A DNA stretch of 64,000 bases, taken from Escherichia phage IrisVonRoten. Under the pieces are notes generated by a model. The model was not told the origin of the DNA. It was given only the letters and a program-made list of their open reading frames with translations, and did not search any database. The stretch is taken from sequence record MZ501075. One strand, 5' to 3'. Of this stretch, positions 12,844 through 62,638 are shown one piece after another; the first letter of the stretch is position 1, and the number at the start of each line of letters is the position of its first letter. The translations under genes and the position numbers were made by a program.

Positions 12844-13077
12844 TTACGATTCCTTGAGCAAAGAAGAAAGTTCAGCATATACTTTATCTAACTCAAACCC
12901 TATGCGAAGAGATACGTTAGTCCTCCGTTGTTTAAGTAACCACTCGGATATGTTAGGGATACCAGCTAATCTATGTGGTACCACTCTACATAGCTTTTCC
13001 GAAGTATCATAAACAGGAACTTTACGTTCTTTTACTGGAAACTTCCTTGTTTCCCATTTTTTATTCTTCACTGTCAT
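12844..13077 (-). CDS. hypothetical small protein
   Basis: Internal Met start chosen to limit overlap with the HNH ORF. Confidence 0.3.
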   Translation of the reverse strand: MTVKNKKWETRKFPVKERKVPVYDTSEKLCRVVPHRLAGIPNISEWLLKQRRTNVSLRIGFELDKVYAELSSLLKES

Positions 13078-13591
13078 ATCTCTCCGAGGGATTAAATTCA
13101 CCAAACAATTCTTTAACTCCCCTAAGGTATAGCTGATGGGCTTCTTCCGGGGTATCTCGTCTACCAAAAATATGCTGCTTTCCATCGCAGTAAGCGTAGG
13201 CCATATACCTATTACCTCGTTTTACAACTCCAGTGAATCCGGTAGAATTAGTAGAACACTTCTTATTCTTTCCATTTTCGGAATAGGTAGCCTTACGTAA
13301 ATTATCCCACAAGTTGTTTAAACTATCACCGTCTTTATGGTCGATAGTTTTATCTCCAGGATCTTCGCCTGTCTTTATAAACCAGATTATTCTATGGGCT
13401 AAGTAAGCTGTCCGCTCCCCATTTATCGTAAACTCTAACTGTCTCCCAGTTTTCATTTTGGAGCCCGCTACCTTTCCCTTCCTTGGGCCAGATAACCAAA
13501 TTAAGTCCCCAGTACTTTCGTCATACCTAAGCTTTTCTAGGATAAATTCCATAGGAGGCATTGGTTTATGCATCTTCATTAGTTGCTCCAA
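13061..13591 (-). CDS. HNH homing endonuclease
   Basis: IDHKDGDSLNNLWDNLR HNH core in translation. Confidence 0.65.
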   Translation of the reverse strand: MEQLMKMHKPMPPMEFILEKLRYDESTGDLIWLSGPRKGKVAGSKMKTGRQLEFTINGERTAYLAHRIIWFIKTGEDPGDKTIDHKDGDSLNNLWDNLRKATYSENGKNKKCSTNSTGFTGVVKRGNRYMAYAYCDGKQHIFGRRDTPEEAHQLYLRGVKELFGEFNPSERYDSEE

Positions 13592-25847: not shown

Positions 25848-25857
25848 GAAATTTTAC

Positions 25858-25886: not shown

Positions 25887-25917
25887 ATTCCTGAAATAGT
25901 GAGAAAGAGGAAAATCA

Positions 25918-43847: not shown

Positions 43848-44310
43848 CAGGGTACTTCAAGCCCTGGATCTTCCAAGGCACTTTACTATTACTGACTCCT
43901 TAATACGTAGGTATATGGAGAAGTATAACGAAATATCTGGTAAAGAAGGTAAACTAAAGTCCTCGGAGTTTAAGTTCTGTTATAGAATGGCAGCGTTAAA
44001 CCTGCTGAAGTATAAAAGGGAGCATAAAATCCCTATAACAGAAGGGTTTGTATATGTAATAGGTAATCCAGCATGGCCTGGACTCTATAAGATAGGTATG
44101 ACAGTAGACGTAAATGAAAGACTGTCTAGTTATCAAACATATTCTCCCTATCGTGATTACAAGTTATACCATTTTAGATTCTCCTCGGACAAGAGAAGAA
44201 CTGAAAAAGCATTACATAGTCTTCTGAAAGACTACAAAGTATCAGGAGAATGGTTTGAAGTACCTCTGTTAGACGCTTTCAAACTATTAGTAGAGAATTT
44301 GGATTGCTAG
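43837..44310 (+). CDS. T5orf172-domain (GIY-YIG-like) protein, putative homing endonuclease
   Basis: GFVYVIGN...LYKIGMT motif; 3' end overlaps start of tRNA-Lys. Confidence 0.6.
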   Translation: MLINRVLQALDLPRHFTITDSLIRRYMEKYNEISGKEGKLKSSEFKFCYRMAALNLLKYKREHKIPITEGFVYVIGNPAWPGLYKIGMTVDVNERLSSYQTYSPYRDYKLYHFRFSSDKRRTEKALHSLLKDYKVSGEWFEVPLLDAFKLLVENLDC

Positions 44311-46455: not shown

Positions 46456-47037
46456 ATGAAATTAGAGAATTTTAAAGTAATCCCAGAATATCCAGAATAC
46501 TTAATCTCTCCATACGGAGAGGTTTACTCTACCAAGAGTAATAAATTACTTACACATCATTTAGGCAGTGCAGGATACCCGTTTGTAACGTTCTATGAAC
46601 AGGGTAAAAATGTTTCTGTTGTACTGCATAGATTATTGGCTAGAGTATTTAAAGATTTACCTTCGCTAGAATCTGAACTAGAGGTGGATCACAAAGATAG
46701 GAATAAATTGAACTTTGCCCTGGATAATCTAGTTGTCATGACCAAGGAAGATCACAGAGTAAAAACTACACTTGAAAGAGGACATATAATAGGTGGTAAC
46801 AAGTGCCCTTATTGTAGTAAACAAATAAATTCTTCAGCTAAAACTTGTTTTAATTGTAAACCTAAGAGTAACCCTGCTATTACAGCAGAGCAAATAGAAT
46901 ATTGGGTAATAAATTATTCGTGGGTTAAAGCATCAAAAGAGCTGGGACTATCTGATAATGGTCTACGTAAACGTTATAAATCCTTAACAGGTAAAGATCC
47001 AAAAAGTATTAAGAAGAAGGTTAGCCAAGTCGGTTAA
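46456..47037 (+). CDS. HNH homing endonuclease
   Basis: LEVDHKDRNKLNFALDNL HNH core; C-terminal zinc ribbon; 3' end overlaps tRNA-Gln. Confidence 0.7.
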   Translation: MKLENFKVIPEYPEYLISPYGEVYSTKSNKLLTHHLGSAGYPFVTFYEQGKNVSVVLHRLLARVFKDLPSLESELEVDHKDRNKLNFALDNLVVMTKEDHRVKTTLERGHIIGGNKCPYCSKQINSSAKTCFNCKPKSNPAITAEQIEYWVINYSWVKASKELGLSDNGLRKRYKSLTGKDPKSIKKKVSQVG

Positions 47038-47090
47038 GGCTGGGGTCTCTGAAATCCTGATCAGTGGTTCAAATCCACTACCTTCTGCCA
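47015..47090 (+). tRNA. tRNA-Gln (anticodon CUG)
   Basis: Acceptor AGAAGGT/ACCTTCT, anticodon loop CTCTGAA, T-loop TTCAAAT. Confidence 0.7.
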
Positions 47091-50458: not shown

Positions 50459-50747
50459 GTTTATTATTGCACTGATGATCTCCGCAGTTAGTTTCGGTTC
50501 TCTGGCATCTACCAAAGTTTCTATGAAAAATGGTAATGTTAAAGTCCAACAGAACGGCATTATTACCGAGTATGGTAAAGTTCGTGATGTTAAAGAACGT
50601 AATGGTAAAGTAGAGGTATACACTAACAAAAATTTCTCTACACCAGCAGTAACTATTCACCGTAATGGTAATATTACTACCCAGCGTTCGAACAATTCAG
50701 ACTCCTTCACTTGCCGTTACGACTGTGATATTGAGATGGAAGAATGA
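50451..50747 (+). CDS. secreted small protein with signal peptide
   Basis: MNKFIIALMISAVSFGSLAS signal peptide; ATG after GAGGATGAAG. Confidence 0.5.
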   Translation: MNKFIIALMISAVSFGSLASTKVSMKNGNVKVQQNGIITEYGKVRDVKERNGKVEVYTNKNFSTPAVTIHRNGNITTQRSNNSDSFTCRYDCDIEMEE

Positions 50748-51253
50748 TTACACAAGAAAGGTTAAAAGAACTGCTGATATATGATCCAGAAACAGGATTA
50801 TTTTCTAGACGTCTAAAAAGTGGTAGAATAAAACCTATAAATAATAAGCCTAATAACTATGGGTATATTCAGATTAGAGTTGGAGATGGACACAGGGAAC
50901 TAGCGCATAGATTAGCCTTCTTGTTTATGGAAGGGTATATTCCTGAATTTGTTGATCATATCAATAGAATTAGGGATGATAATAGGTGGAGTAATCTCAG
51001 AGATAGTTCTAGGCAGGAAAATAATAGAAATAGGACTGCTACTAGCAATTCGGGATACTTAGGAGTATCTTGGGATACTCATCTCCAGAAAGGGAGAGTT
51101 TATACTAATAATAACGAAGGTATTAGAGTTTACGGTGGTCTATTCGATTATGAAGACTTAGAATCTGCAGTATACAAAGCTAATGGATTACGATTAGAAT
51201 TGCACGGAACTCTAGCAGTCATCGAAGAGTTTAATGGGTTTCCTAAAGAATAA
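50744..51253 (+). CDS. HNH homing endonuclease, paralogue 1 of 3
   Basis: N-terminal ITQERLKELL shared with 58152 and 62102 ORFs; HRLAFLFMEGYIPEFVDHINRIRDDNRWSNL core. Confidence 0.7.
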   Translation: MITQERLKELLIYDPETGLFSRRLKSGRIKPINNKPNNYGYIQIRVGDGHRELAHRLAFLFMEGYIPEFVDHINRIRDDNRWSNLRDSSRQENNRNRTATSNSGYLGVSWDTHLQKGRVYTNNNEGIRVYGGLFDYEDLESAVYKANGLRLELHGTLAVIEEFNGFPKE

Positions 51254-51563
51254 CAGAGAGAAGAACGTGAAAAGACTAAACATCAATAGCACAGTGCAGA
51301 TTCCAGCAACTAAGGATGTTTTAACATTCCTACGTAGTGAAAACGCTCAGTTTTGGCATGACTATATTCAGGAAAATAAAAATAATCCAGGTGTAGTTGC
51401 CTTTGCCAAAAAACGTATCGAAGAATATAAAGATCCAGAGATTAAAGATGGGATGATTACTATGCAATTGTGGGTAGCCATGAATACGTTTGGACCCACT
51501 ATGAGTCTAGGAGTTACTCCACTGTTTACTAATATTCTAATTAATGAAAAGGATCTGAAATGA
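51234..51563 (+). CDS. hypothetical protein
   Basis: 109-aa ORF; start uncertain. Confidence 0.45.
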   Translation: MGFLKNNREKNVKRLNINSTVQIPATKDVLTFLRSENAQFWHDYIQENKNNPGVVAFAKKRIEEYKDPEIKDGMITMQLWVAMNTFGPTMSLGVTPLFTNILINEKDLK

Positions 51564-51844
51564 TTATTTCTCCGTTTGCTCTTTGGTTCGTCATTGGCTC
51601 TGTGGTTGCTATTTACAGCTGTGTTGACGATGTGTTCTTCTCGAAAAACAAGGCTGTATTATTAGAGCATCTGTGGCGAACTTCCCCAGATACTTTAATC
51701 TTCTTTGGTGCGGAAAAGGGATACAAGATCGCCCTAGTGATGTTTATTATAATTGACACATTATTAGGGCCAGTAGCTCTCTACGGATTCTATCGTAAAA
51801 CCCGCAAGATGAAACAACTCGAAGCTAAATACTTTGGGAAGTAA
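51560..51844 (+). CDS. hypothetical membrane protein
   Basis: Two hydrophobic segments. Confidence 0.5.
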   Translation: MIISPFALWFVIGSVVAIYSCVDDVFFSKNKAVLLEHLWRTSPDTLIFFGAEKGYKIALVMFIIIDTLLGPVALYGFYRKTRKMKQLEAKYFGK

Positions 51845-51954
51845 AGAACTCGCGTAGGACCGAGTTGCGTCACCTGCAACTGTTACGGATAAGGGAGTCG
51901 TGCCCCTTAGTGCGGTAAGTGGTGAGGTTGCTGCTAGCACTAACTGGAGATAAT

Positions 51955-52299
51955 ATGAGCTTTATTTTATTCATTGTAGCAGCATGGTTTATTATTGGTT
52001 TAGGCTATGCTATTGCAGTTATTCGTCATCTGGATGAATATTCTGCTGAATGGTTTATTAAGTACCTACGTTTAGACGATCAAGAATACGAGTTCGACAG
52101 TGATGAGGAAAGGCAGGCTGTCCAGTCAATGACTCCCAAAGAATGCTTGCTCTACATGCGTGTAATTGGTTTCTTTGGACTGTTGGTAGCAGGACCGCTA
52201 GGTCTTACTATTGCTCCTTACAAAGAAGTTATTGACGACATTAAACTATGGAGAACCGCTGGATCGCTACGCAAAGCTAGAGAAACTAATATTACATAA
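51955..52299 (+). CDS. hypothetical membrane protein
   Basis: Start moved to ATG after GGAGA SD; followed by terminator hairpin. Confidence 0.5.
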   Translation: MSFILFIVAAWFIIGLGYAIAVIRHLDEYSAEWFIKYLRLDDQEYEFDSDEERQAVQSMTPKECLLYMRVIGFFGLLVAGPLGLTIAPYKEVIDDIKLWRTAGSLRKARETNIT

Positions 52300-52392
52300 G
52301 ATTGACACTAAGTCAACTTACTAGCAAAAGCAAATAATGACAAAGCCCAGCCTGCACTTTTGCGACTGGGCTATTTTTATAATAAAATTTTA

Positions 52393-52421
52393 GTTGCTTA
52401 GATGCCCAAACTTTTGTATAA
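52393..52421 (+). promoter_or_regulatory. T5-type early promoter
   Basis: TTGCTT, 17-bp spacer, TATAAT. Confidence 0.7.
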
Positions 52422-52453
52422 TATGTTTATAGATTGAGGCAAGAGGATTAAAT

Positions 52454-53152
52454 ATGAGGATTATTTCTAAGTTCTCCGATGTGTATGATTTGCAGAACAG
52501 TTTGTTTGACCCCGATCGTGTTTGGGAGCGTAAAACTGAAGAGTTACTGGTTAAGGTAACTGATGATGCAGAAAAGAACATTGTGCATACTCGCCAAGTA
52601 TTTCGTGAAGGTTCACTATCTTTCCGTGGCGACTTCGAATACTTTGTAAACCCACTGTTTGTTGCAGGTGAAGTTTACTGGTTACACGAGTTGTACTGCT
52701 GGCATCCAGCGTTTAGCTTTAAAACGTTCGACCTCGACACTATGTTCGATAAAATGAAAGAGATGGGATTGCATGCTCGCTCTTACTTAATGGATAAGAG
52801 TCGCGGAGATGTTCGTGAAACAATGCGTGATCTGCTAGCTGAAGCAAAACCTAAAGCAGAACGTATCTTATCCGAACTACGTGTACCGATTGCATATGTG
52901 AAAGGTATTAAGAAGAACGATAACGATGATGTTCGTAACTTCGTGATTCAGACTAACATTCGTTTTCATCAGTCAGGTATTCCGTGGCAGGAAATTGAAA
53001 GTAACTTATACCGTTTACACCAGATGATCGAGCAATATATCTGGGGCGTGTTAGGAACCGGTGAACCAAATACCATTACGATTTCCGATAAGGATCGCTT
53101 AGCTGCACATGGATTTGATACTGTTACTTCTTTTAGGAATATGAAAAGATGA
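52454..53152 (+). CDS. hypothetical protein
   Basis: 232-aa ORF. Confidence 0.6.
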   Translation: MRIISKFSDVYDLQNSLFDPDRVWERKTEELLVKVTDDAEKNIVHTRQVFREGSLSFRGDFEYFVNPLFVAGEVYWLHELYCWHPAFSFKTFDLDTMFDKMKEMGLHARSYLMDKSRGDVRETMRDLLAEAKPKAERILSELRVPIAYVKGIKKNDNDDVRNFVIQTNIRFHQSGIPWQEIESNLYRLHQMIEQYIWGVLGTGEPNTITISDKDRLAAHGFDTVTSFRNMKR

Positions 53153-53574
53153 TAAAAAACTTTATTAGTTCTCTATGGCAAGGTAAATGGTATATCCTGG
53201 GAGCAGGTCTAGCGATAGGCATCGGGTTCGGTGCTTATCACTTAGTAAATAAAGTGGAGACTTTGGCGGGAGATCTTGCGGTAGCTACTAAAAAGATTTC
53301 TTCTCTAGAGACTTCCCTTAATAAGGTGAAAGCTGAAAGCGAGCTTCGTGAGACTAGAATGAATCAGTATTTCACTATGAATAATATTTCGCAAGCAGAT
53401 CTAGACAAAAAGATTAAGCAGTTAGATAAAGCTCTTAGTCGACAAGATATTATAGCTGCAAAGCCTGGATTGGTAACATTAATTGCTAAAAAGCAGAGTA
53501 AAGAGTTCGAGGAAAGATTAGCATGTCTTTCTGGTAGCCTGGAATACTGTGGGAATGAGCATAAAAATAAATAA
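53149..53574 (+). CDS. hypothetical membrane-anchored coiled-coil protein
   Basis: N-terminal TM segment then coiled coil. Confidence 0.5.
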   Translation: MIKNFISSLWQGKWYILGAGLAIGIGFGAYHLVNKVETLAGDLAVATKKISSLETSLNKVKAESELRETRMNQYFTMNNISQADLDKKIKQLDKALSRQDIIAAKPGLVTLIAKKQSKEFEERLACLSGSLEYCGNEHKNK

Positions 53575-54253
53575 AGAAATCTTTAATAATGATTTAGAAG
53601 CTCAGGGCAGAACAGTAAGATTAGTTGGAGAGTATAAGCATAATAAGACAAAAGCACAATTTAAGTGCCTTATATGTTCTAATATATGGTTAACAGCCCC
53701 TACAAATGTTAGGAATAAGGGTAGAGGGTGTCCAAAGTGTGCTGGCAATGAAAAATTAACCAAAGATAAGATTAACTTACTTCTTAGTCCTAGAAAAATC
53801 ACATTACTAAGTGAATATACTAATTCTGCTTCTAAGTTAAAATTTTTATGTAATACGTGCTCCCATCAATGGGAGACAACTACCAACCATGTTTTACATG
53901 GTAGTGGTTGCCCAAATTGTGCTAAAACAGCTTGGGATACTCAAGGATTTTTATACATATTTATATCTGATAAAGGTATAAAAATAGGAATAAGTAAGAA
54001 TGTACAAAAGAGACTTTTAGAAGTTAGGTCTTGCAGTGGATTTAAAGACTTGAGAATACTATCTTACTATCTTTGTGGTAATGGTTCAAAAGAAGAAACA
54101 GCTAAAATAGAAGCTGACCTACATAGTATCTATAAAGCTAAAAGATGCAATTATACAGGGTTTAGTGGTAGTACAGAGTTTTTCAATGTTCCCCCAAAAG
54201 AAGTAGAACAGTATATAGAAGCACATTATGAGGTGCGTAAATGCGCAAAATAA
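53549..54253 (+). CDS. T5orf172-domain (GIY-YIG-like) protein with zinc ribbons
   Basis: CPKCAG and CPNCAK ribbons; GFLYIFISDKGIKIGIS motif. Confidence 0.55.
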   Translation: MGMSIKINKEIFNNDLEAQGRTVRLVGEYKHNKTKAQFKCLICSNIWLTAPTNVRNKGRGCPKCAGNEKLTKDKINLLLSPRKITLLSEYTNSASKLKFLCNTCSHQWETTTNHVLHGSGCPNCAKTAWDTQGFLYIFISDKGIKIGISKNVQKRLLEVRSCSGFKDLRILSYYLCGNGSKEETAKIEADLHSIYKAKRCNYTGFSGSTEFFNVPPKEVEQYIEAHYEVRKCAK

Positions 54254-54594
54254 AACTTGGAATACTGCTCGCAGCCGCAATCACAATCACAGGCTGTGCA
54301 CAAGAAATAAAGCCAGAACCTACACATGAGCTACCAACAGCCCATGTGGATTGGCCTAAAGGACTTCAGCCTTGTAGCTTTGATTTCAAATTCGAAAAGA
54401 AATTAGCTACAAATGGCGAAGATGGCGTAGTAGTTGTTGTACCATATAAAGATTGGAATATGTTGGCAAAATGCCGGGAGGCAGAATATTCATATATCTC
54501 ACGATTGACTAGTATGGTTTGCTTCTATCGCCAAGATTTACAAGAAAAACGTTGCTTAGTTTACTATCCACCCATTAACAATAGGAAAGATTAA
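54241..54594 (+). CDS. lipoprotein
   Basis: Signal peptide with lipobox ITGC. Confidence 0.55.
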   Translation: MRKIKLGILLAAAITITGCAQEIKPEPTHELPTAHVDWPKGLQPCSFDFKFEKKLATNGEDGVVVVVPYKDWNMLAKCREAEYSYISRLTSMVCFYRQDLQEKRCLVYYPPINNRKD

Positions 54595-55346
54595 TGTCAG
54601 TATTAGTAGGTCTGCATGGTGAAGCTGGTTCGGGAAAAGATACCGTTGCAAAATTAATTATCGATTGGTGTAATTACACGTATCCAACGTGTTTACCCCG
54701 TCGTTATAGTTTTGCTAAGCCCGTTTATGAACTTGCATCCGTAATCCTCGGTGTAACTCCAGAGTTTCTAGGAGAGCGCAGGGGAAAAGAGATTAACCAA
54801 TGGTTTACGGTCACACAATCTCAATTGGAGCGAGCTAGAGACGTATGGTTTAAATACGGTATCGATAAGTTTGAAGACTTCTCGTACGTTTGGCCAATTT
54901 TTGAGGAAAAATATCTTAATCCTCAACAACTTATCTCAGAGAATAAAGAAGACGGACTTTATAGTTTATTTATTTCTACGAGAAAAATGTTACAGCTCGT
55001 AGGAACAGAGCTAGGAAGGCAGCTGGTACATGAACGCATTTGGCTCATAATTCTGGAGCAATCCATCGCTAAAGACGACCCAGATGTCGCCGTAATAACA
55101 GATGTGAGATTCCCCAATGAAGGAGAGTTACTCAGAGAAACGAACCATTTAGATATGGATTCTTTACTAGTAAATGTAGTGCCCGCTGAGCAGAAGTTCA
55201 CTATTAAATCAGATCATCCATCTGAAAGTGGTATTCCTGCAAAATATATCACTCACGAATTAGTTAATAAATTCGATGGTATCAATAACCTTAAACTAGA
55301 AGTGTATAACTTCTGTGACTTAGAGCTAGAACCACTAGTTGGATAA
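54594..55346 (+). CDS. deoxynucleoside monophosphate kinase
   Basis: Walker A GEAGSGKDT near N-terminus. Confidence 0.7.
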   Translation: MSVLVGLHGEAGSGKDTVAKLIIDWCNYTYPTCLPRRYSFAKPVYELASVILGVTPEFLGERRGKEINQWFTVTQSQLERARDVWFKYGIDKFEDFSYVWPIFEEKYLNPQQLISENKEDGLYSLFISTRKMLQLVGTELGRQLVHERIWLIILEQSIAKDDPDVAVITDVRFPNEGELLRETNHLDMDSLLVNVVPAEQKFTIKSDHPSESGIPAKYITHELVNKFDGINNLKLEVYNFCDLELEPLVG

Positions 55347-55358
55347 TCAAGGATCGCT

Positions 55359-55958
55359 ATGACTAATAAAAAAGAAGAAAAGACTAACCTGTTCCACTCC
55401 ATTCGCCAATCTAATGAGTATACCTTCTTCTTTGATGAAGAACTTGGTCCGCCGGATGAATACCGTGATTTATCAATGGTACTTATGCAGGCAAATGAGG
55501 ACGATGAAATTAATCTGATGATTAATGGCCCTGGTGGTTATGTTGATACTGCTGCACAGTTATCTAACTTAATTGCTAATTGCCGTGGAACAGTTATAGG
55601 ACACCTGATTGGCCCTAGTGCTTCTGCTTACTGCACAATTTTTCTATCTTGTCATGGATGGGTAGTACATCCACATGCTACGCTAATGGGACACACGTTC
55701 TCTGGCGGGTTCTGTGAGAAAGGTCAAGAAATCAAGAAAGCCTATGAATCTTACAACAAGTTCGTAGAAGATATGATGCTAGATGTCTACTATCCGTTCT
55801 TCTCAATAGATGAAATCGACGAGATGGTAAAAGACAACAAAAATATCTATCTAGATAGCAAGGAAATCCATAAGCGTATTGAAATCTTGGCAAAATATCG
55901 ATCTGAGCAATATAATAAAGCCCAGTTACCTCAATCCGAGGAGCATAACGAAGAGTAA
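55359..55958 (+). CDS. ClpP-like serine peptidase family protein (tentative)
   Basis: INGPGGYV...GPSASAYC resembles the ClpP core; assignment tentative. Confidence 0.45.
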   Translation: MTNKKEEKTNLFHSIRQSNEYTFFFDEELGPPDEYRDLSMVLMQANEDDEINLMINGPGGYVDTAAQLSNLIANCRGTVIGHLIGPSASAYCTIFLSCHGWVVHPHATLMGHTFSGGFCEKGQEIKKAYESYNKFVEDMMLDVYYPFFSIDEIDEMVKDNKNIYLDSKEIHKRIEILAKYRSEQYNKAQLPQSEEHNEE

Positions 55959-55967
55959 GTAATTTTA

Positions 55968-55998
55968 AGCCAGGGTTAAGTACCCTGGCTTTTCTTTT
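55968..55998 (+). terminator. rho-independent terminator
   Basis: GCCAGGGT...ACCCTGGC hairpin + TTTTCTTTT. Confidence 0.7.
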
Positions 55999-56060
55999 AT
56001 CTAAAATTCTTCTTGACAACGACAAAATTTTGTGCTCCAAAGAAAATCTTTAAAAACACA

Positions 56061-56089
56061 TTGTAATTTTCCTCCAAAATTAGTATAAT
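56061..56089 (+). promoter_or_regulatory. sigma70-type promoter upstream of lysis genes
   Basis: TTGTAA, 17-bp spacer, TATAAT. Confidence 0.55.
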
Positions 56090-56771
56090 GGTACTGGTTA
56101 GAGGAGGTTACAAATTGGAAAAGTTCTTACAATTATTAACAGTACTGCTCCAAGAAGCGAAAGACCCAGCATCGCTTCTTAAACGTCTGCTAACTATCTT
56201 AGTTGCTGTCATTATTTTCTTATTTGTTAGTAATACTAGTGAAGTGATGTCATTCTTAAAGACTTTTTCCACGTCTGCAGTTTTACAAGATTTACAAACC
56301 CAGAGGATAGATAACTTCCCTAATGTGGCGAGGGAAAAGAGCATGGTTCTCTTCTCTCAGACGGGTGCAGATGCTGTTTTTGTAGTCAAGTATAAACCAG
56401 ATGCTATCAATGATTATTCCAATATTATTGCATGGGAAAGTAATGCGCAATTAGATAGGGCTGACTTGGCCGATAAAGCGGTAAATAAAACGTCTGAATT
56501 ATACAGACGTCATTTAGAGGGCTTTAACTACGCATCGGATTTAAGTGTAAGAGTAAATAAATATATGGGGTTAAATATACCTGCGTTTAAGAACGTTACT
56601 TTTAATTACATATACACTTGTCCGTACTTCAATCTAAACAATATCTATGCTGGATATATTGGTATTGCTTGGAAAGATAATCCTGTAGATGCAGCCGATT
56701 CTGAGAAATTTAACGAGTATTTAACAAAGCTCTGTTCCCCACAACAGAGATCTTTAGGTAGATCAATATGA
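56088..56771 (+). CDS. putative holin / lysis membrane protein
   Basis: N-terminal TM helix; stop overlaps endolysin start (ATGA). Confidence 0.5.
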   Translation: MVLVRGGYKLEKFLQLLTVLLQEAKDPASLLKRLLTILVAVIIFLFVSNTSEVMSFLKTFSTSAVLQDLQTQRIDNFPNVAREKSMVLFSQTGADAVFVVKYKPDAINDYSNIIAWESNAQLDRADLADKAVNKTSELYRRHLEGFNYASDLSVRVNKYMGLNIPAFKNVTFNYIYTCPYFNLNNIYAGYIGIAWKDNPVDAADSEKFNEYLTKLCSPQQRSLGRSI

Positions 56772-57181
56772 GTTTTAAATTTGGTAAAAATAGCGAAAAA
56801 CAATTAGCTACCGTTAAGCCAGAGCTACAAAAAGTAGCTCGTAGAGCTTTAGAATTATCTCCTTATGATTTCACGATCGTACAGGGTATTCGTACAGTAG
56901 CACAAAGTGCCCAGAATATTGCTAATGGTACTTCATTCTTAAAAGATCCTAGTAAAAGCAAGCATATTACTGGGGATGCTCTTGATTTTGCTCCATACAT
57001 TAATGGTAAGATTGATTGGAATGATTTAGAAGCATTTTGGGCAGTTAAAAAGGCTTTTGAACAAGCAGGTAAAGAACTAGGCATTAAACTTCGTTTTGGT
57101 GCTGATTGGAATGCTTCGGGAGATTATCACGATGAAATAAAACGTGGTACCTATGATGGCGGTCATGTCGAACTAGTTTAA
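56768..57181 (+). CDS. endolysin, L-alanyl-D-glutamate peptidase (M15 family)
   Basis: SKHITGDALD and GGHVELV zinc-ligand motifs; 137 aa. Confidence 0.8.
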   Translation: MSFKFGKNSEKQLATVKPELQKVARRALELSPYDFTIVQGIRTVAQSAQNIANGTSFLKDPSKSKHITGDALDFAPYINGKIDWNDLEAFWAVKKAFEQAGKELGIKLRFGADWNASGDYHDEIKRGTYDGGHVELV

Positions 57182-57258
57182 TTAATAACTTAGGCGGGAA
57201 TATTCCCGCCTTTTTAGGCAAAGGGGGCTTTAATAACTTTTGAAGATAGGAGAAAGCC

Positions 57259-57675
57259 ATGTTTGCAGAACTATTCACTATGATGCTACTAGGTATCTGG
57301 AAAATAAGTCTAGTAGTATTCGTTTTAATGATAGTCTTTACTATCGTTGCATTAACTACCCGAAATAGCTTATTAATAAAGGTTATTCACGGACTAGAGT
57401 ATATAATTATGGGTTCATTCGGCGTTTGTAAATGCAATTGCCATAGAGATACGAAATATTGTTGGTTATGGATGGAACTAGAGAATCCTATATCCATAGC
57501 TTTGGCTGTTTCATTCGGTATGATTCTTATGGCCCTTACTCTAGCATTAATACCTTTGATGTTAGCTGGGGGAGTTACAGCGTATTTCACCCTTTTCTCC
57601 CCGATACTTATGTACTCAATTTATCCAATAACTATGTATCTAGTTAGGAAAAGATTTATACATGCAGTAGATTAA
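57259..57675 (+). CDS. hypothetical membrane protein (possible lysis accessory)
   Basis: Multiple TM segments; adjacent to endolysin. Confidence 0.5.
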   Translation: MFAELFTMMLLGIWKISLVVFVLMIVFTIVALTTRNSLLIKVIHGLEYIIMGSFGVCKCNCHRDTKYCWLWMELENPISIALAVSFGMILMALTLALIPLMLAGGVTAYFTLFSPILMYSIYPITMYLVRKRFIHAVD

Positions 57676-57688
57676 GATAAAAAAGTAG

Positions 57689-57717
57689 TTGACTTTTAGC
57701 CCTAGTTATTATATAAT
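57689..57717 (+). promoter_or_regulatory. sigma70-type promoter
   Basis: TTGACT, 17-bp spacer, TATAAT. Confidence 0.6.
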
Positions 57718-57750
57718 ATATACATAAATTAGTTAAGAAAGGTATATATT

Positions 57751-58155
57751 ATGTCTGATCGTTTCTACACTCAAATGGCGGAACATTATAACATGGCCCC
57801 ATATGAGTTGAACATCGCATTACGTGACCTCAATTCACCAGAGCGTAAAAAACTTGAGAAGAGGGCAGGAACTACTATGTCTAAAGGCAAGAAACTTACT
57901 CGTATTGATCTTAATAACATGCTGACCGAAATGCTTGGTGTGAATATTGAGGGTGCGAAGTTGCCTCTCAATGTTCTTGAAGCTATGTTGGATAAAGTAA
58001 AGAATAAAACCTACAAAAAGGTAGAAGTCCCTGAAGGGCGTTTAAAAGCGCCTTACCAGGCAGCATTAACAGAATGTTTAGGAACTACTCTAGATCTCAG
58101 CACTGCAACTGTTAGGTGCATGAAAAACTTCTTGGAGGCCATTAATAAATTGTGA
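57751..58155 (+). CDS. hypothetical protein
   Basis: 134-aa ORF. Confidence 0.6.
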   Translation: MSDRFYTQMAEHYNMAPYELNIALRDLNSPERKKLEKRAGTTMSKGKKLTRIDLNNMLTEMLGVNIEGAKLPLNVLEAMLDKVKNKTYKKVEVPEGRLKAPYQAALTECLGTTLDLSTATVRCMKNFLEAINKL

Positions 58156-58691
58156 TAACACAAGAAAGATTAAAGGAATTACTAGATTATAACCCGGAAA
58201 CGGGTGTGTTTACCCGGTTAATAAGTGTTGGAGGCCAAAAAGTAGGTAGTATTGCTGGTACTCTAAGGAAAGATGGATATATACAAATCCGAGTTGATAG
58301 AAATCGTTATTATGCCCATCAGCTAGCTTTTCTTTTTATGGAAGGTTATTTACCAGAAATAGTAGATCATATAAATCGTATACGAAATGATAATAGGTGG
58401 GTCAATCTTAGGGAATCCAATAGTCAGAAGAACAACAGAAATAGGAACACTAAAAGTAAATCTGGCTACTTGGGGGTCTTCTGGGATACCCAAAAACAAA
58501 AGTGGAGAATAACTATTAGAGATTCTACAGGTAAAAATATTCATGGTGGTTATTTTAACTACTTAGACCTAAGATTAGCAGTCCAAAGAGCTAACGAACT
58601 CAGATTAAAATTACACGGACCCGATGCTATTCTAGAAACTTTCAACCCTACCAAGCTATTACCAACTTTAGAGGATTTAAATAATGAGTAA
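58152..58691 (+). CDS. HNH homing endonuclease, paralogue 2 of 3
   Basis: ITQERLKELL N-terminus; HQLAFLFMEGYLPEIVDHINRIRNDNRWVNL. Confidence 0.7.
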   Translation: MITQERLKELLDYNPETGVFTRLISVGGQKVGSIAGTLRKDGYIQIRVDRNRYYAHQLAFLFMEGYLPEIVDHINRIRNDNRWVNLRESNSQKNNRNRNTKSKSGYLGVFWDTQKQKWRITIRDSTGKNIHGGYFNYLDLRLAVQRANELRLKLHGPDAILETFNPTKLLPTLEDLNNE

Positions 58692-58977
58692 TAAATTAGT
58701 CTATCTATTAAAAGGTTCCACGTGTCGTCCTTGTGCTCTTTTTGAGCCAGTATTTGATAAAGTAGTCAATGAATATAATTTGGAAGTCCATAAAGAGACT
58801 GATAATACAGAATTAATGCAGAAGTTCGGAGTAAGAGCTGTTCCTGTAGTAGTTCTGGCGGATCGCTTACCTAATGGTCGAGTAGAAGCTAATCATATTT
58901 TGATTGGACGTCAGCTTCGTAAAGAAACTATGCACGAAGCTATTAAAAATTTCCTGGACGATAATCCAGAGGATTAA
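58684..58977 (+). CDS. thioredoxin/glutaredoxin-like protein
   Basis: CRPC redox motif near N-terminus. Confidence 0.55.
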   Translation: MSNKLVYLLKGSTCRPCALFEPVFDKVVNEYNLEVHKETDNTELMQKFGVRAVPVVVLADRLPNGRVEANHILIGRQLRKETMHEAIKNFLDDNPED

Positions 58978-58983
58978 TAAACC

Positions 58984-59016
58984 AAGCCTGATCTTAGCGG
59001 ATCAGGCTTTTATTTT
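58984..59016 (+). terminator. rho-independent terminator
   Basis: AAGCCTGATC...GATCAGGCTT hairpin + TTTATTTT. Confidence 0.7.
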
Positions 59017-59018
59017 AC

Positions 59019-59047
59019 TTGCTTTTTGCTAAAAATTTTGGTACAAT
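59019..59047 (+). promoter_or_regulatory. T5-type early promoter
   Basis: TTGCTT, 17-bp spacer, TACAAT. Confidence 0.6.
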
Positions 59048-59137
59048 ACTTATATAAATTGATGAGAAGGCTATCTTCGTATGGGTTCTAGTCATACTAA
59101 GGGCTATCTACGCACTACAAGAAATAGGAGTATTCCA

Positions 59138-59515
59138 ATGAACTATGCATATCTTATTATTAATAATAACGTAGTTTGTGGTACTCGCGCTGTTGAGATG
59201 GGTATTACAGAAGAAAAGTATAAGTCACTTCCAGAAAAGGAACAACAATATTATGTTGAAGAAGCTGCTTGGGAGTATGCTGAGGTTTATCCCGAAGAAC
59301 GTGAAGATCGTCTTACTCTTGTTGTGTCTCTGGGTTTGGTTGGCTATGATACCGAAGTTGATACAGACCTAGAGACTTTGGAGGAGTGGGAAGAGTTAGA
59401 TATCTCAGCTAAAAACTCCTTAATCCGTGAAGCCTTTTGGGAAGCTGTAGATTGCCACGTAGTATTTGAGCCTAATGATGAAGAGGCTGAAAAACATACC
59501 AACCATTGGAGATAA
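59138..59515 (+). CDS. hypothetical acidic protein
   Basis: Start moved to ATG after AGGAG SD. Confidence 0.55.
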   Translation: MNYAYLIINNNVVCGTRAVEMGITEEKYKSLPEKEQQYYVEEAAWEYAEVYPEEREDRLTLVVSLGLVGYDTEVDTDLETLEEWEELDISAKNSLIREAFWEAVDCHVVFEPNDEEAEKHTNHWR

Positions 59516-59519
59516 TTAA

Positions 59520-59765
59520 ATGTTAGCAGAGCAAGCAAAACATTTAGCTAGGGTTAATAGAGCTGCTCTTCTCAAGAGCAGAAAGAAACCGTATAGATAC
59601 GTTAAAAGACGGATTATATCTTCTGTAGAATGTGGTGGTTCTTATGTGCAGTTTAACCGTGATGAAATTAGTTATGAGGCCATAAAAGCCATTTATAAAG
59701 AGGGTTATACTCTCAAACTATCTAATAACTATGGTACAACTATTTTAAATGTTATTTGGGAATAA
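59520..59765 (+). CDS. hypothetical small protein
   Basis: 81-aa ORF. Confidence 0.5.
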   Translation: MLAEQAKHLARVNRAALLKSRKKPYRYVKRRIISSVECGGSYVQFNRDEISYEAIKAIYKEGYTLKLSNNYGTTILNVIWE

Positions 59766-59767
59766 TT

Positions 59768-60631
59768 ATGAAAAAAGAATTTAATGTGCATAAAACACTA
59801 GTAGTACCTGATGATGTTAACTTATTTTTTGTTGGTGATATTCATGGATGTAACGATTTACTAGAAGATGCACTACAATTAGCTGGCTATAACGGCAAGA
59901 AAGATTGCGTTGTATGCGTGGGAGATTTAATTGATCGAGGCACGCAGAACCTACAAGTTCTAGCTAAATTCTTATATAATCCACGTTTCTGTAGTGTTCG
60001 TGGAAATCATGACCAGTTTATGATTGTAGGAGATTGGGCTAACTGGATGTATAATGGTGGTATGTGGGCTATGAATGAGCTGGACGCAGATACCATTAAA
60101 AATATTGCCGAAGACATGGCTGAAAAACTTCCAGTATTTCTGACTGTGCTGCATCGTGGCAAGAAGTATGGTGTTGTTCATGGTGGTGTACCTTTTACAT
60201 ACAAAGAATGTGGTAACGAAGTAGAAACTCCAGTATGGGATAACCTTATTGCACAAGTAGAAGCAGCTAAGGAAGACCCACATGACCATCCTGGATACCA
60301 TGTTGAACCATATTTATGGGATCGAGATGTAATACAAGAAATAGGCTTCCATTTGTCCAAAAATGGTGAGGAACACCCCTACTTCCAGCGTTATGCAGGA
60401 TTTAAAGAAAAATACATGGTAGAAGTACCTTCAGTTAGTGGGGTAGACTTTGTGTTTCATGGACATACTGGAGTACCTTACCCTATTTTACACCAAAATC
60501 GTGTTTACCTAGATACTGGCGGTGTCTTCAACGGGCAGTTGACGGTTGCGCAAGTTAATGATGAAACTGGGAAAATCACAACATTTACCACGCTTCGAGA
60601 AGATAGCTGTGGCATACAGAGGATTCTTTAA
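59768..60631 (+). CDS. Ser/Thr protein phosphatase (PPP family, lambda-PPase-like)
   Basis: GDIHGC, GDLIDRG and RGNHD motifs. Confidence 0.8.
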   Translation: MKKEFNVHKTLVVPDDVNLFFVGDIHGCNDLLEDALQLAGYNGKKDCVVCVGDLIDRGTQNLQVLAKFLYNPRFCSVRGNHDQFMIVGDWANWMYNGGMWAMNELDADTIKNIAEDMAEKLPVFLTVLHRGKKYGVVHGGVPFTYKECGNEVETPVWDNLIAQVEAAKEDPHDHPGYHVEPYLWDRDVIQEIGFHLSKNGEEHPYFQRYAGFKEKYMVEVPSVSGVDFVFHGHTGVPYPILHQNRVYLDTGGVFNGQLTVAQVNDETGKITTFTTLREDSCGIQRIL

Positions 60632-61152
60632 TGAAAGTCTGCTTTTGGAGTGATCTACACTTAGGACATGCAAATATTACTAAATTCAGGCCAATCTTTT
60701 CTAGTATGGAAGAGCATGACGAATTTATTATGGATACCATTACATCCATGAAGGATAAGCGTACAGTATTCTATATTTTAGGGGATGCATTTGTATCTAG
60801 AGATGGTTTGGAGAAGTTTGGGAAACTCTTCAGCAATGTTAGAACTACATTAGTTTTGGGGAACCACGACTTAGAACGAGAGGGGTTATCTTTCAAAGAC
60901 TTAGTAGGAGTAGTAGATAGTGTACAATCCCTAGTTAAGTATAAAAACTTTTGGCTTTCCCATGCTCCAGTACATCCAGAAGAGTTAAGAGGCAAGAAGA
61001 ACTTACACGGACATACTCACTTTGAGTTAATGGGAGACCCTCGTTATATTAACGTTTGTGTAGAGTATGCAAAATCACCGGTACGCCTGGAAGACATCAT
61101 GAATGGTAAGTACACTTCTCATGATAAAACTAGCTGGATGTTAAATGTCTAA
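60631..61152 (+). CDS. calcineurin-like metallophosphoesterase
   Basis: SDLHLGH, LGDAF and GNHD motifs. Confidence 0.7.
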   Translation: MKVCFWSDLHLGHANITKFRPIFSSMEEHDEFIMDTITSMKDKRTVFYILGDAFVSRDGLEKFGKLFSNVRTTLVLGNHDLEREGLSFKDLVGVVDSVQSLVKYKNFWLSHAPVHPEELRGKKNLHGHTHFELMGDPRYINVCVEYAKSPVRLEDIMNGKYTSHDKTSWMLNV

Positions 61153-61260
61153 GTATATAGCTGAGGCTATCATTAAACGAGTCATACAAGCAGTAGCAAT
61201 ACTTATAATCATTTGTATTGCTATTGGTACAGGATTAGGCATTTTAATTAAAAGTTTTAT

Positions 61261-61289
61261 TTGCTAAAATGCTTAAGTTTCTGTATAAT
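61261..61289 (+). promoter_or_regulatory. T5-type early promoter
   Basis: TTGCTA, 17-bp spacer, TATAAT. Confidence 0.7.
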
Positions 61290-61319
61290 TACTTTATAAA
61301 TTGATGAGAAGGAAACAAA

Positions 61320-61751
61320 ATGAACAAAGTTGATAAAGCTCTAGTTTTCGCAGCAGCAGATAAGTTTGAACAAGTTAAGGCAACTTTCCGAACCTTGTTT
61401 CAGTCTTACGTTCAGGATAAGTCTAACCCTATCTCTGAACGATTAATGGTCTGGGAATGTCATGCTTGCAATGCCCTGCTAATTGCTGATTACCGTAGTG
61501 ATATAGATAAAGATCTTTGTGAAATCCTTATCCCCGAGGAAGCAGAACGTTATCAGCTAATCTCTTTCCAAGATTTGGCAGAGCAGATCATCCCTGATGA
61601 TCTTTGGGACAAATATTACGGTGATCCTGAAGACGAAGGAATGGCTCCAGAAGCATGTATTGAGTTAATCTGTAAAGATTATCCTGAAATTGCGGAAAAA
61701 TTTGAAAAAGTTTTTGCTTCTGAGTTCTCTGGTGTTGTTAACGATTGGTAA
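61320..61751 (+). CDS. hypothetical acidic protein
   Basis: 143-aa ORF. Confidence 0.6.
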   Translation: MNKVDKALVFAAADKFEQVKATFRTLFQSYVQDKSNPISERLMVWECHACNALLIADYRSDIDKDLCEILIPEEAERYQLISFQDLAEQIIPDDLWDKYYGDPEDEGMAPEACIELICKDYPEIAEKFEKVFASEFSGVVNDW

Positions 61752-61768
61752 GTAATTAAAAAATTCAG

Positions 61769-61797
61769 TTGCTTTAAGCCTTAAAATTCTGTATAAT
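61769..61797 (+). promoter_or_regulatory. T5-type early promoter
   Basis: TTGCTT, 17-bp spacer, TATAAT. Confidence 0.7.
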
Positions 61798-61829
61798 AAG
61801 TTCATAAATTAATGAGAGAGGAAATTCTA

Positions 61830-62108
61830 ATGGAAAACATGACTAAAGACTTCGACGCCTCTAACCTTACCAAGACTGAAATGGCCAATGTATTAGCAAT
61901 TCTCCTCGACATGCAAGGATTTGAGGGGCAACTGATGAAAATGTCTATTCCGGCGATGAAGAAGATGTACGATTCTCTTAACAAGAACGCTATGGCCTTT
62001 AATTTAGCAAAACAAGAGGCACGCTTTGCTAAGGAGCATCAAGCAGTGGCAGAACGCCGAGCAGCTAGCTTTGAGCGTGAAGTCAAGCAATTAAAGAAAA
62101 AATGTTAA
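61830..62108 (+). CDS. hypothetical protein
   Basis: Start placed after GAGAGAGGAAA SD. Confidence 0.55.
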   Translation: MENMTKDFDASNLTKTEMANVLAILLDMQGFEGQLMKMSIPAMKKMYDSLNKNAMAFNLAKQEARFAKEHQAVAERRAASFEREVKQLKKKC

Positions 62109-62638
62109 CACAAGAAAGATTAAAAGAGTTATTTGAATACCGCCCGGAAACGGGCGAGTTTATTAGATTAGTAAGTATAGGTAATCAAAAAGCTGGTAGT
62201 ATTGCTGGCTGTCTAAGAAAGACTGGGTATATAGAAATAAGAGTAGATAAAGTAGGCTACAAAGCACATCGACTAGCCTTCCTCTATATGGAAGGTTATA
62301 TTCCCAAAGTAATAGACCACGTAAATCGTATACGGAGTGATAATAGGTGGTCTAACCTTAGAGAATCTAATAACCAAGAAAATTCTAGAAATAGAACAGC
62401 AAGAAGCAAATCAGGGTATTTGGGAATCTTTTGGCATAAACAAAAGCAAAAATGGGAAGTAAGGGTTGTAGATTCATACAAAAAGTTAGTACATGGCGGG
62501 TATTTTGATTTCCTAGATCTAGAATTAGCGGTTCAAAGAGCTAATGAACTACGTTTAGAACTACAGGGGGCTAACGCTGTTATAGAAACTTTTGACCATA
62601 CAAAACCCTTACCTACTTTAGAGGAATTAAATAAATGA
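62102..62638 (+). CDS. HNH homing endonuclease, paralogue 3 of 3
   Basis: LTQERLKELF N-terminus; HRLAFLYMEGYIPKVIDHVNRIRSDNRWSNL. Confidence 0.7.
   Translation: MLTQERLKELFEYRPETGEFIRLVSIGNQKAGSIAGCLRKTGYIEIRVDKVGYKAHRLAFLYMEGYIPKVIDHVNRIRSDNRWSNLRESNNQENSRNRTARSKSGYLGIFWHKQKQKWEVRVVDSYKKLVHGGYFDFLDLELAVQRANELRLELQGANAVIETFDHTKPLPTLEELNK

What the first reader, a model, noticed from the sequence alone, without database searches (positions are those of the whole stretch)
50744..62638. Three paralogous HNH endonucleases with near-identical N-termini
ORFs at 50744, 58152 and 62102 share the ITQERLKELL...ETG...R N-terminus and the HRLAFL.MEGY.P..VDH.NRIR.DNRW.NLR core but diverge elsewhere. A fourth related HNH ORF lies on the minus strand at 13061-13591. 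T5-family HNH enzymes include site-specific nickases, so this family may shape marker exclusion in mixed infections.
Basis: partly seen in the sequence, partly recalled or inferred. Interest (0 to 1): 0.35.

Follow-up and report, generated by a model that had tools for sequence, protein, structure and literature searches.

The report
Mobile HNH homing endonuclease genes, T5-like phage
The three look-alike genes are real full-length paralogues: selfish, free-standing HNH-AP2 "homing endonuclease" genes of the F-Tfl family already described in phage T5, scattered patchily among T5-like phages, so this is a well-documented but ordinary feature.

Summary
The ORFs at 50744-51253 (A), 58152-58691 (B) and 62102-62638 (C) are full-length paralogues with 57-68% aa identity (BLASTP E 1e-59 to 1e-96). 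The minus-strand ORF D (better start 13579) is a distant relative, about 30% identical. All four carry Pfam HNH_3 and fall in phrog_99.

The window is a T5-like phage (Tequintavirus). A/B/C belong to the F-TflV/P-TflX subfamily of T5 'heg' genes. D is the P-TflIX orthologue (98.8%).

Comparative evidence fits mobile homing endonuclease genes:
- Distribution is sporadic. Orthologues of A, B and C occur in 8, 2 and 11 phage records. Site B is uninterrupted in 346 of 393 T5-like records.
- Orthologue identities are bimodal.
- Identity peaks over the genes and one flank, with sharp recombination boundaries at the gene ends.
- Alleles are mosaic.

Near-identical genes are already annotated as HNH or homing endonucleases in GenBank. 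Cleavage or nicking activity and target sites remain untested. Novelty: already known. Interest is low.

The parts
50744..51253 (+). HNH-A, 169 aa. HNH_3 + AP2 free-standing homing endonuclease gene at the site T5 uses for hegE/F-TflV. Its ATG overlaps the upstream stop (ATGA). It carries W117G.
   Evidence: It is 99.4% identical to Gostya9, vB_Sen_I1 and H8 orthologues and 66% to T5 F-TflV, with the last 36 aa identical.
58152..58691 (+). HNH-B, 179 aa, GTG start overlapping the upstream stop (GTGA). It is inserted between the T5.038 homologue and the thioredoxin gene, a site that is empty in T5.
62102..62638 (+). HNH-C, 178 aa, between the T5.032 and T5.030 homologues. It replaces the small T5.031-type ORF found in T5 and vB_Sen_I1.
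   Evidence: It is 96.6% identical to the oldekolle and H8 orthologues. About 70%-identical allelic variants occupy the same site in Gostya9 and others.
13061..13579 (-). HNH-D, 172 aa, the orthologue of T5 hegI / P-TflIX. It lies immediately downstream of the replication-origin-binding-protein gene and overlaps its end.
   Evidence: 98.8% identity; 22 records at >=95%; start context.
46456..47037 (+). Fifth HNH gene (NUMOD4 + HNH_3), the orthologue of T5 hegD / F-TflII. It belongs to a different subfamily, and its 3' end overlaps tRNA-Gln(CTG).
   Evidence: (94.3% identity).
57703..58151 (+). Upstream flank co-inherited with HNH-B: a promoter-like site plus a distinct allele of the T5.038 homologue (134 aa, ending ...AINKL).
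   Evidence: This flank is 97-99% identical to KookSpook against a background of about 89%. It is only 60-75% identical to H8, whose surrounding DNA is 97-100% identical. The allele comparison is and the promoter-like site at 57689-57717.
58667..58691 (+). 3' tail of HNH-B (TTTAGAGGATTTAAATAATGAGTAA). It contains a GAGG Shine-Dalgarno sequence and the thioredoxin ATG overlapping the HNH stop. The equivalent tail of C is at 62615-62638.
   Evidence: Read directly from the sequence. Its function is inferred.

Best explanation
A, B and C are three free-standing homing endonuclease genes (HEGs) of one subfamily, the F-TflV/P-TflX group of phage T5 'heg' genes. D is a more distant member of the same superfamily.

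Each protein is a monomeric two-part enzyme:
- An N-terminal I-HmuI-type His-Me-finger (HNH_3) nuclease module, made of an N-terminal helix, a beta-hairpin and the beta-beta-alpha metal site. The catalytic set is Asp72/His73/Asn85/Asn94 in B numbering.
- A C-terminal AP2 DNA-binding domain that supplies sequence specificity.

Inferred mechanism:
1. In a cell co-infected with a related phage lacking the gene, the enzyme nicks or cuts that phage's DNA near the cognate intergenic site. Nicking is the more likely outcome, since there is one active site per monomer as in I-HmuI.
2. Replication and recombination repair then use the HEG-carrying genome as template.
3. This copies the HEG and adjacent DNA into the recipient, so flanking markers are preferentially inherited (marker exclusion).

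The genes sit inside early operons. Their start codons overlap the upstream stop and they have no good Shine-Dalgarno sequence of their own, which suggests low, translationally coupled expression. Their 3' tails restore a Shine-Dalgarno sequence and an overlapping start for the downstream gene.

What is shown: homology, fold, intact catalytic residues, patchy distribution, identity peaks and recombination boundaries. What is inferred: cleavage or nicking, target sites, and homing itself.
For: Homology and family: Pfam HNH_3 on all four. All four fall in phrog_99 'HNH endonuclease' over their full length. Identities to T5 F-TflV are 60-69% and to P-TflX 54-60%. D is 98.8% identical to P-TflIX.

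Mobility signatures:
- Orthologues at >=90% identity occur in only 8 (A), 2 (B) and 11 (C) of roughly 400-460 T5-like records. Few or no records have intermediate identities: none for D, one for E, and a gap between >=90% and <=80% for A, B and C.
- Site B is uninterrupted in 346 of 393 records.
- A is 99-100% identical among A+ phages while the downstream flank drops to 83%.
- B plus 450 bp upstream is 97-99% identical to KookSpook against an ~89% background. H8 is 97-100% identical around site B but 53-75% within it.
- Synonymous divergence pS of B is 0.057, versus 0.26-0.38 in neighbouring genes.
- pN/pS of 0.07-0.35 indicates the proteins are still under purifying selection.

Mosaicism: A and F-TflV are 93-100% identical in the last 45 aa but 40-77% elsewhere. 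C and the Gostya9 allele share their ends (87-90%) but not their centre (57-68%).

Literature: F-Tfl HNH homing endonucleases of T5 are described, and HEGs are called the main source of variation among T5-like phages (PMC10644984; PMC2330249). The HNH+AP2 HEG family is known (PMC5714182; PMC10448857).
Against: - No biochemical or genetic data exist for A, B or C. The only 'nicking' statement is a GenBank product name, and a literature search for F-TflVIII returned nothing.
- Pfam AP2 itself did not reach E<=0.01 on the four window proteins.
- For sites A and C no truly empty allele was seen among the seven relatives examined. The alternatives there are unrelated small ORFs: phrog_5486, a T5.031-type 54-aa ORF, and phrog_13127. 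The events therefore look like cassette replacement rather than simple insertion.
- The window's copy of A has W117G at a Trp that is >=90% conserved in 83 homologues, so this copy may be impaired.
- The distribution counts include duplicate GenBank/RefSeq records.
Confidence: 0.85

Rival explanations
1. The HNH proteins are domesticated nucleases serving the phage. Candidate roles are the enzyme that makes the characteristic single-strand nicks of T5-type virion DNA, host DNA degradation, or a dedicated weapon against competing phages. On this view they are not selfish mobile genes.
For: T5 and BF23 DNA carries site-specific nicks, annotated consensus Pu|GCGC. I-HmuI-type HNH enzymes nick. 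AP2 domains tend to prefer GC-rich sites (PMC10448857). pN/pS below 1 indicates the proteins are maintained.
Against: Nicks are a conserved trait of the group, whereas A, B and C are each present in only a few records. T5 itself lacks B and C and carries a different allele at site A. A conserved function would predict conserved presence. Identity peaks and recombination boundaries point to horizontal spread.
Confidence: 0.06
2. The three genes are relics: homing endonuclease genes that are no longer active and are merely carried along.
For: HEGs are expected to decay after fixation (PMC3326045). Window A has W117G at a near-invariant AP2 tryptophan. That is its only difference in 510 nt from the vB_Sen_I1 and H8 copies.
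Against: All ORFs are intact and full length, and the catalytic D/H/N/N residues are invariant. pN/pS is 0.23-0.35 for B and C and 0.07-0.08 for D and E. Very low synonymous divergence from orthologues in otherwise diverged genomes indicates recent transfer, which requires activity somewhere in the recent past.
Confidence: 0.07
3. The three copies arose by recent duplication within this genome, and their similar N-termini reflect ongoing gene conversion between them.
For: The first 26-53 nt are 79-88% identical between copies, higher than the gene average. Mosaic alleles show that recombination among family members does occur.
Against: Overall nucleotide identity is only 71-73.5%. Each copy has a 96-99% orthologue at the same site in other phages, which is far closer than any copy within this genome. 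The N-terminal motif is conserved at >=90% across 83 diverse homologues, so protein-level constraint explains it.
Confidence: 0.02

Closest known systems
Phage T5 heg genes, especially hegE (F-TflV) and hegJ (P-TflX); hegI (P-TflIX) for D; hegD (F-TflII) for the fifth gene
   Same: Same phage group, protein length and architecture. A, B and C are 54-69% identical to F-TflV and P-TflX. A occupies the same intergenic site as F-TflV and shares its last 36 aa. D is 98.8% identical to P-TflIX at the same site, and E is 94.3% identical to F-TflII at the same site.
   Different: B and C sit at sites that carry no HEG in T5: T5.038|T5.037, and the position of T5.031. A is a different allele from F-TflV, with a 53-71% identical nucleotide centre. 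The window lacks T5's hegF, hegH, hegJ, hegC and hegA.
I-HmuI / I-BasI (intron-encoded nicking HNH homing endonucleases of Bacillus phages; PDB 1u3e)
   Different: I-HmuI is intron-encoded and uses C-terminal helical/HTH modules for DNA binding. The window proteins are free-standing and use an AP2 domain. Nicking has not been shown for them.
HNH-AP2 homing endonuclease family (Magnani et al. 2004, as cited in PMC5714182 and PMC10448857; includes the ICP1 'IPA-HNH' genes)
   Same: N-terminal HNH plus C-terminal AP2 architecture in phage-borne, variably present genes. Homologues of B carry PF13392+PF00847.
   Different: The ICP1 IPA-HNH domains are too divergent for the HNH_3 Pfam model, whereas the window proteins match HNH_3 strongly.
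T4-type free-standing HEGs (Seg and Mob proteins, e.g. SegB)
   Same: Free-standing genes between conserved genes. They cause preferential inheritance of flanking markers in mixed infection (PMC2330249). The flank co-conversion signature is comparable.
   Different: Seg proteins are GIY-YIG enzymes. Mob proteins are HNH enzymes of another Pfam family and lack AP2.

Membership tests
HNH_3 / I-HmuI-type His-Me finger nucleases | Significant match to the HNH_3 model above the curated cut-off | tested here: met
   PF13392 scores are 47.5-55.6 bits against a cut-off of 24.8 for A, B, C and D. The fifth gene scores 36.6 bits.
HNH_3 / I-HmuI-type His-Me finger nucleases | Catalytic residues present: general-base His preceded by the metal-ligand Asp, the structural Asn, and the metal-ligand Asn | tested here: met
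   In the profile alignment to 1u3e, I-HmuI D74/H75/N87/N96 align with columns D72/H73/N85/N94 (B numbering). These columns are invariant in 10 family members including A-D.
HNH_3 / I-HmuI-type His-Me finger nucleases | Structural similarity to I-HmuI | tested here: met
HNH_3 / I-HmuI-type His-Me finger nucleases | Site-specific nicking or cleavage activity | not testable with these tools
   Only a GenBank product name on the Gostya9 orthologue ('nicking homing endonuclease'). No paper was found.
AP2 DNA-binding domain (PF00847) | Three-stranded beta-sheet packed on one alpha-helix, matching solved AP2 domains | tested here: met
AP2 DNA-binding domain (PF00847) | Sequence match to the AP2 family | tested here: inconclusive
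   Pfam AP2 was not reported at E<=0.01 for A-D themselves. The family profile hits WRI1 AP2 at E 0.0027, and many homologues carry precomputed PF00847.
Free-standing homing endonuclease genes | Sporadic presence or absence among closely related genomes at a fixed position between conserved genes | tested here: met
   Orthologues occur in 8, 2 and 11 records for A, B and C. Site B is uninterrupted in 346 of 393 records. Synteny blocks break exactly at the genes.
Free-standing homing endonuclease genes | Evidence of horizontal spread with co-conversion of flanking DNA | tested here: met
   Identity peaks cover A (99-100%) and B plus its upstream gene (97-99% against an ~89% background). pS is 0.057 for B versus 0.26-0.38 in neighbours.
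Free-standing homing endonuclease genes | The enzyme cleaves the gene-lacking allele and the gene is inherited non-reciprocally in crosses | not testable with these tools
   Requires in vitro cleavage mapping and mixed-infection crosses.
T5 F-Tfl (heg) family | Homology and shared genomic position with named T5 heg genes | tested here: met
   A sits at the hegE site (66% identity, identical 3' end). D equals hegI (98.8%) and E equals hegD (94.3%). B and C are 57-69% identical to hegE and hegJ but lie at sites unoccupied in T5.

The most novel reading that the evidence does not exclude
The conserved ends of this HEG subfamily may be functional 'portable junctions'.

- The 5' end places the HEG start codon over the upstream gene's stop (ATGA, GTGA, ATGTTAA).
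- The conserved C-terminal tail (...LE[ED]LN..., DNA TTAGAGGAnTTAAATAA) supplies a Shine-Dalgarno sequence and an overlapping ATG for the downstream gene. The cassette can therefore drop into translationally coupled operons without polar damage.
- The same conserved ends could act as homology handles. These would let the specificity-determining centre (residues 23-43 and the AP2 sheet) be swapped between alleles and paralogues.

This would explain three observations: the different HEGs sharing one identical 5' junction at site B (window B, H8 B', and the F-TflVI-like gene of vB_Sen_I1); the A/F-TflV mosaic; and the C/C' mosaic.
Probability: 0.3. Interest if true: 0.4.

Novelty: already known. 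Interest (0 to 1): 0.15.

Why it matters
The practical value is in annotation and comparative genomics. These genes mark the boundaries of recombination blocks among T5-like phages, many of which are used or proposed for phage therapy and biocontrol. They explain most local gene-content differences between otherwise about 90-100% identical genomes. If activity were shown, the enzymes could also be a source of new rare-cutting nickases with AP2-based recognition. Nothing here changes current understanding: HNH-AP2 homing endonucleases, the T5 F-Tfl family and their role in mosaicism are all described.

Tried and rejected
- Recent intragenomic duplication or gene conversion as the cause of the similar N-termini: rejected. 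Nucleotide identity is 71-73.5%, and same-site orthologues elsewhere are 96-99% identical.
It was redone with database homologues.
- A literature search for 'F-TflVIII' found nothing. No paper with activity data for F-TflV through F-TflX was found. The primary Akulenko 2004 paper is not in the library and is known here only through citations.
- The sigma-70 promoter scan was not enriched over shuffles (42 found versus 45 expected). Only sites that coincide with promoters annotated in T5 were used, and only as context.
- The idea that vB_Sen_I1 gene 132 at site B is an N-terminally truncated HNH was rejected. Reading upstream shows a GTG start at the same junction, giving a full-length protein.
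- The hypothesis that these HNH proteins are the T5 virion-DNA nickase was rejected on distribution grounds.
- A script lookup of the H8 copy of C by exact string failed and was not needed, because one search covers it.
Full report
**What is there**

The window is a T5-like siphovirus genome segment. Region 50000-63000 matches 460 phage records by megablast. The best matches are about 91-93% identical over 80-93% of the query: Escherichia phage H8, Salmonella phages vB_Sen_I1 and oldekolle, and Escherichia phage Gostya9, all Tequintavirus. The window runs antiparallel to the T5 reference map. It covers the early region from the D10-D6 replication genes, through the nrd genes and a cluster of 25 tRNA genes, to the lysis, dnk and phosphatase block.

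The ORFs named in the finding exist exactly as stated:
- A, 50744-51253, 169 aa.
- B, 58152-58691, 179 aa, GTG start.
- C, 62102-62638, 178 aa.
- D on the minus strand, 13061-13591. By homology to T5 hegI it most probably starts at the ATG at 13579, giving 172 aa.

**Is the similarity real?**

Yes.
- BLASTP gives A-B 59%, A-C 57% and B-C 68% identity over essentially the whole length, with E values from 9e-59 to 7e-96.
- D is 30-31% identical to B and C over 115 residues (E 1e-10 to 3e-12).
- All four exceed the curated threshold of Pfam HNH_3.
- All four match the same PHROG family, phrog_99 'HNH endonuclease', from end to end.
Mean identity among A, B and C is 76% for residues 1-22 and 71% for the HNH core.
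- The proteins remain alignable everywhere. The least conserved parts are residues 23-43 (40%), the AP2 beta-sheet (44%) and the C-terminal tail (39%).
- At the DNA level the copies are old: B-C is 73.5% identical, and A versus B or C is about 71% over the core only.

**A fifth HNH gene and other nuclease genes**

Scanning 52 further ORFs of the window found one more HNH_3 protein, at 46456-47037, with a NUMOD4 motif. Its 3' end overlaps tRNA-Gln(CTG). The same scan found two T5orf172 (GIY-YIG-like) proteins, at 53549-54253 and 43837-44310.

**What the proteins are**

- A profile built from ten family members hits the nicking homing endonuclease I-HmuI (PDB 1u3e) with E 1.8e-6. I-HmuI's Asp74, His75, Asn87 and Asn96 fall on columns that are invariant in the family (B: Asp72, His73, Asn85, Asn94).
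- The same profile hits the AP2 domain of WRI1 with E 0.0027.
- A search of 5.8 billion proteins returned 581 homologues. [quoted passage not shown]
- An AlphaFold2 model of B built on 83 sequences is confident (mean pLDDT 88.5).
- Foldseek agrees for the AP2 half only.

The architecture is therefore an I-HmuI-like nuclease half fused to an AP2 DNA-binding domain. This is the known HNH-AP2 homing endonuclease family (PMC5714182; PMC10448857).

**Relation to T5**

The T5 reference annotates ten 'heg' genes. By position and sequence:
- D is hegI / P-TflIX (98.8%).
- The fifth gene is hegD / F-TflII (94.3%).
- A sits at the site of hegE / F-TflV (66% overall, last 36 residues identical).
- B and C are closest to F-TflV and P-TflX (57-69%) but lie at sites that hold no HEG in T5.
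- The window in turn lacks T5's hegF, hegH and hegJ. Their sites are uninterrupted here (53153|53190, nrdA|nrdB, helicase|primase).

The Gostya9 record labels its 99.4%-identical copy of A, and its variant of C, 'family HNH nicking homing endonuclease F-TflVIII'.

**Evidence that they are mobile**

1. Patchy distribution. Orthologues at >=90% identity occur in 8 records for A, 2 for B, 11 for C (six phages), 22 for D and 17 for the fifth gene. Few or no records have intermediate identities: none for D, one for the fifth gene, and a gap between >=90% and <=80% for A, B and C. A 70-bp probe across the uninterrupted B site is contiguous in 346 of 393 T5-like records.

2. Synteny breaks exactly at the genes.

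3. Identity profiles.
   - A is 99-100% identical among A-carrying phages, while DNA just downstream drops to 83%.
   - B together with the whole upstream gene (57703-58600) is 97-99% identical to KookSpook, against a background of about 89%.
   - H8 is 97-100% identical to the window on both sides of site B but only 53-75% identical within it. There it carries another paralogue.

4. Synonymous divergence of B from the KookSpook copy is 0.057, against 0.26-0.38 in neighbouring genes. For C against oldekolle it is 0.063, against 0.11-0.21 in neighbours.

5. pN/pS of 0.07-0.35 shows the proteins are still constrained.

This pattern matches the report that nuclease genes sit at boundaries of genetic exchange between phages (PMC10448857). 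It also matches the statement that HEGs account for most differences among T5-like genomes (PMC10644984).

**Anatomy of the insertions**

- All three starts overlap the upstream stop: A ...GAAGAATGA, B ...AAATTGTGA, C ...AAAAAATGTTAA. None has a convincing Shine-Dalgarno sequence, which suggests weak, coupled translation.
- The insertion changes the last residues of the upstream protein. At B...AINNYE becomes ...AINKL. At C...LKGKK becomes ...LKKKC.
- The 3' tails of B and C (TTTAGAGGA[T/A]TTAAATAA) contain GAGG 8-10 nt before the downstream ATG, and that ATG overlaps the HEG stop. The empty B site has an equivalent GAGG at the same distance. I infer that the tail preserves translation of the downstream gene. 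This is not shown.
- B lies in a three-gene unit bounded by a promoter-like site at 57689-57717, which matches a promoter annotated in T5, and by a hairpin terminator at 58984-59009.
- At sites A and C the alternative alleles are not empty. They carry unrelated small ORFs: phrog_5486; the 54-aa T5.031 type; and a 140-aa phrog_13127 protein. The events there are cassette replacements.

**Mosaicism**

- A and T5 F-TflV are 93-100% identical over the last 45 residues and 99% identical in nucleotides over 51175-51250. Elsewhere they are 40-77% identical.
- C and the Gostya9 allele share their ends (87-90%) but not their centre (57-68%; 61-68% nucleotide).
- Three different HEGs use the identical 5' junction at site B: window B, H8 B', and an F-TflVI-like gene in vB_Sen_I1. 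The vB_Sen_I1 gene's annotated start is too far downstream.

This suggests exchange of gene centres between family members. I did not run formal recombination tests.

**How it most likely works (inferred)**

1. The AP2 domain, and probably the variable 23-43 segment, recognise a site in the allele lacking the gene.
2. The single HNH site nicks, or with a second event cuts, that DNA.
3. Replication converts a nick to a break, as proposed for I-HmuI and I-BasI (PMC3017599).
4. Repair from the HEG-carrying co-infecting genome copies the gene and its flank.

The direction and length of the B-linked tract (about 450 bp upstream, ending near the HEG's 3' end) fit such co-conversion.

**Rivals**

- A conserved phage function such as the virion-DNA nickase is unlikely. 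T5 lacks B and C, and most relatives lack all three.
- Wholesale decay is unlikely given intact ORFs, invariant catalytic residues and pN/pS below 1.
- The window's A does carry W117G at a tryptophan conserved in >=90% of 83 homologues. It aligns with the Trp of WRI1's 'RWEARI' strand. This is its only difference in 510 nt from the vB_Sen_I1 and H8 copies, so this particular copy may be impaired.
- Recent intragenomic duplication is excluded by the identities.

**Verdict**

Near-identical genes are annotated as HNH or homing endonucleases in GenBank. The T5 F-Tfl family and the HNH-AP2 architecture are described, and so is their role in T5-group mosaicism. The modest residual interest lies in three points: the junction design of the cassettes, the swapping of gene centres between alleles, and the lack of any published activity data for this subfamily.

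Noticed in passing
It is the orthologue of T5 hegD / F-TflII (94.3%). Its 3' end overlaps tRNA-Gln(CTG) at 47015-47090, a tRNA that the T5 record flags as a pseudogene.
   Followed up: yes
window 53549-54253 (+): A putative GIY-YIG-like homing endonuclease: two CapR / treble-clef zinc-finger domains plus T5orf172/MUG113. It is a clean ~704-bp presence/absence polymorphism. It is present in vB_Sen_I1 and H8 and absent in oldekolle, Gostya9, KookSpook and T5, where the flanking alignments overlap by ~14 nt.
   Followed up: partly
window 43837-44310 (+): A second T5orf172/MUG113-domain ORF (157 aa) in the tRNA cluster. Its end abuts tRNA-Lys(TTT) at 44301. It is probably another mobile nuclease gene.
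   Followed up: no
window 51092-51094 (codon 117 of HNH-A): GGG (Gly) where vB_Sen_I1, Gostya9 and H8 have TGG (Trp). This is the only difference in 510 nt from two of them. It falls on a Trp conserved in >=90% of 83 homologues, on the second AP2 strand. It may be a recent inactivating hit in this phage's copy.
   Followed up: partly
window 57751-58155 (+): The T5.038 homologue upstream of HNH-B is a distinct allele. It has a 9-residue deletion and many substitutions, and ends ...AINKL. It is 98-99% identical to the KookSpook copy but only 60-75% identical to H8, although H8 is otherwise 97-100% identical nearby. The allele appears to travel with the HEG.
   Followed up: partly
window 53153-53190, 54597-54600, 25810-25918 and 6073-6076: Uninterrupted sites that hold HNH genes in relatives: the hegF / F-TflVI site (occupied in T5, vB_Sen_I1 and H8); a T5.044|dnk site (occupied in H8 by a B/C-like paralogue); the nrdA|nrdB site (T5 hegH); and the helicase|primase site (T5 hegJ). 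The family uses at least eight sites across the group.
   Followed up: partly
window 59063-59515: A 452-bp indel containing ORF 59081-59515 (144 aa, acidic, phrog_6798, function unknown). It is present in vB_Sen_I1, oldekolle and KookSpook and absent in Gostya9, H8 and T5.
   Followed up: no
window 51550-51750 and 51925-52200: Two short hypervariable stretches inside small membrane-protein ORFs (51560-51844 and 51919-52299). They are 49-70% identical even to relatives that are 95-100% identical on either side.
   Followed up: no
window 62141-62156: A perfect 6-bp all-G:C hairpin (CGCCCGGAAACGGGCG) lying over codons 14-19 (RPETGE) of HNH-C, flagged by the terminator scan. It could modulate HEG translation or be coincidental.
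   Followed up: no
L001 (vB_Sen_I1) 10173-10679: The GenBank CDS vBSenI1_132 (131 aa) appears to be annotated with too late a start. A GTG at the same junction used by window HNH-B gives a full-length F-TflVI-like HNH protein of ~168 aa beginning MITRERLLEVLEY.
   Followed up: partly
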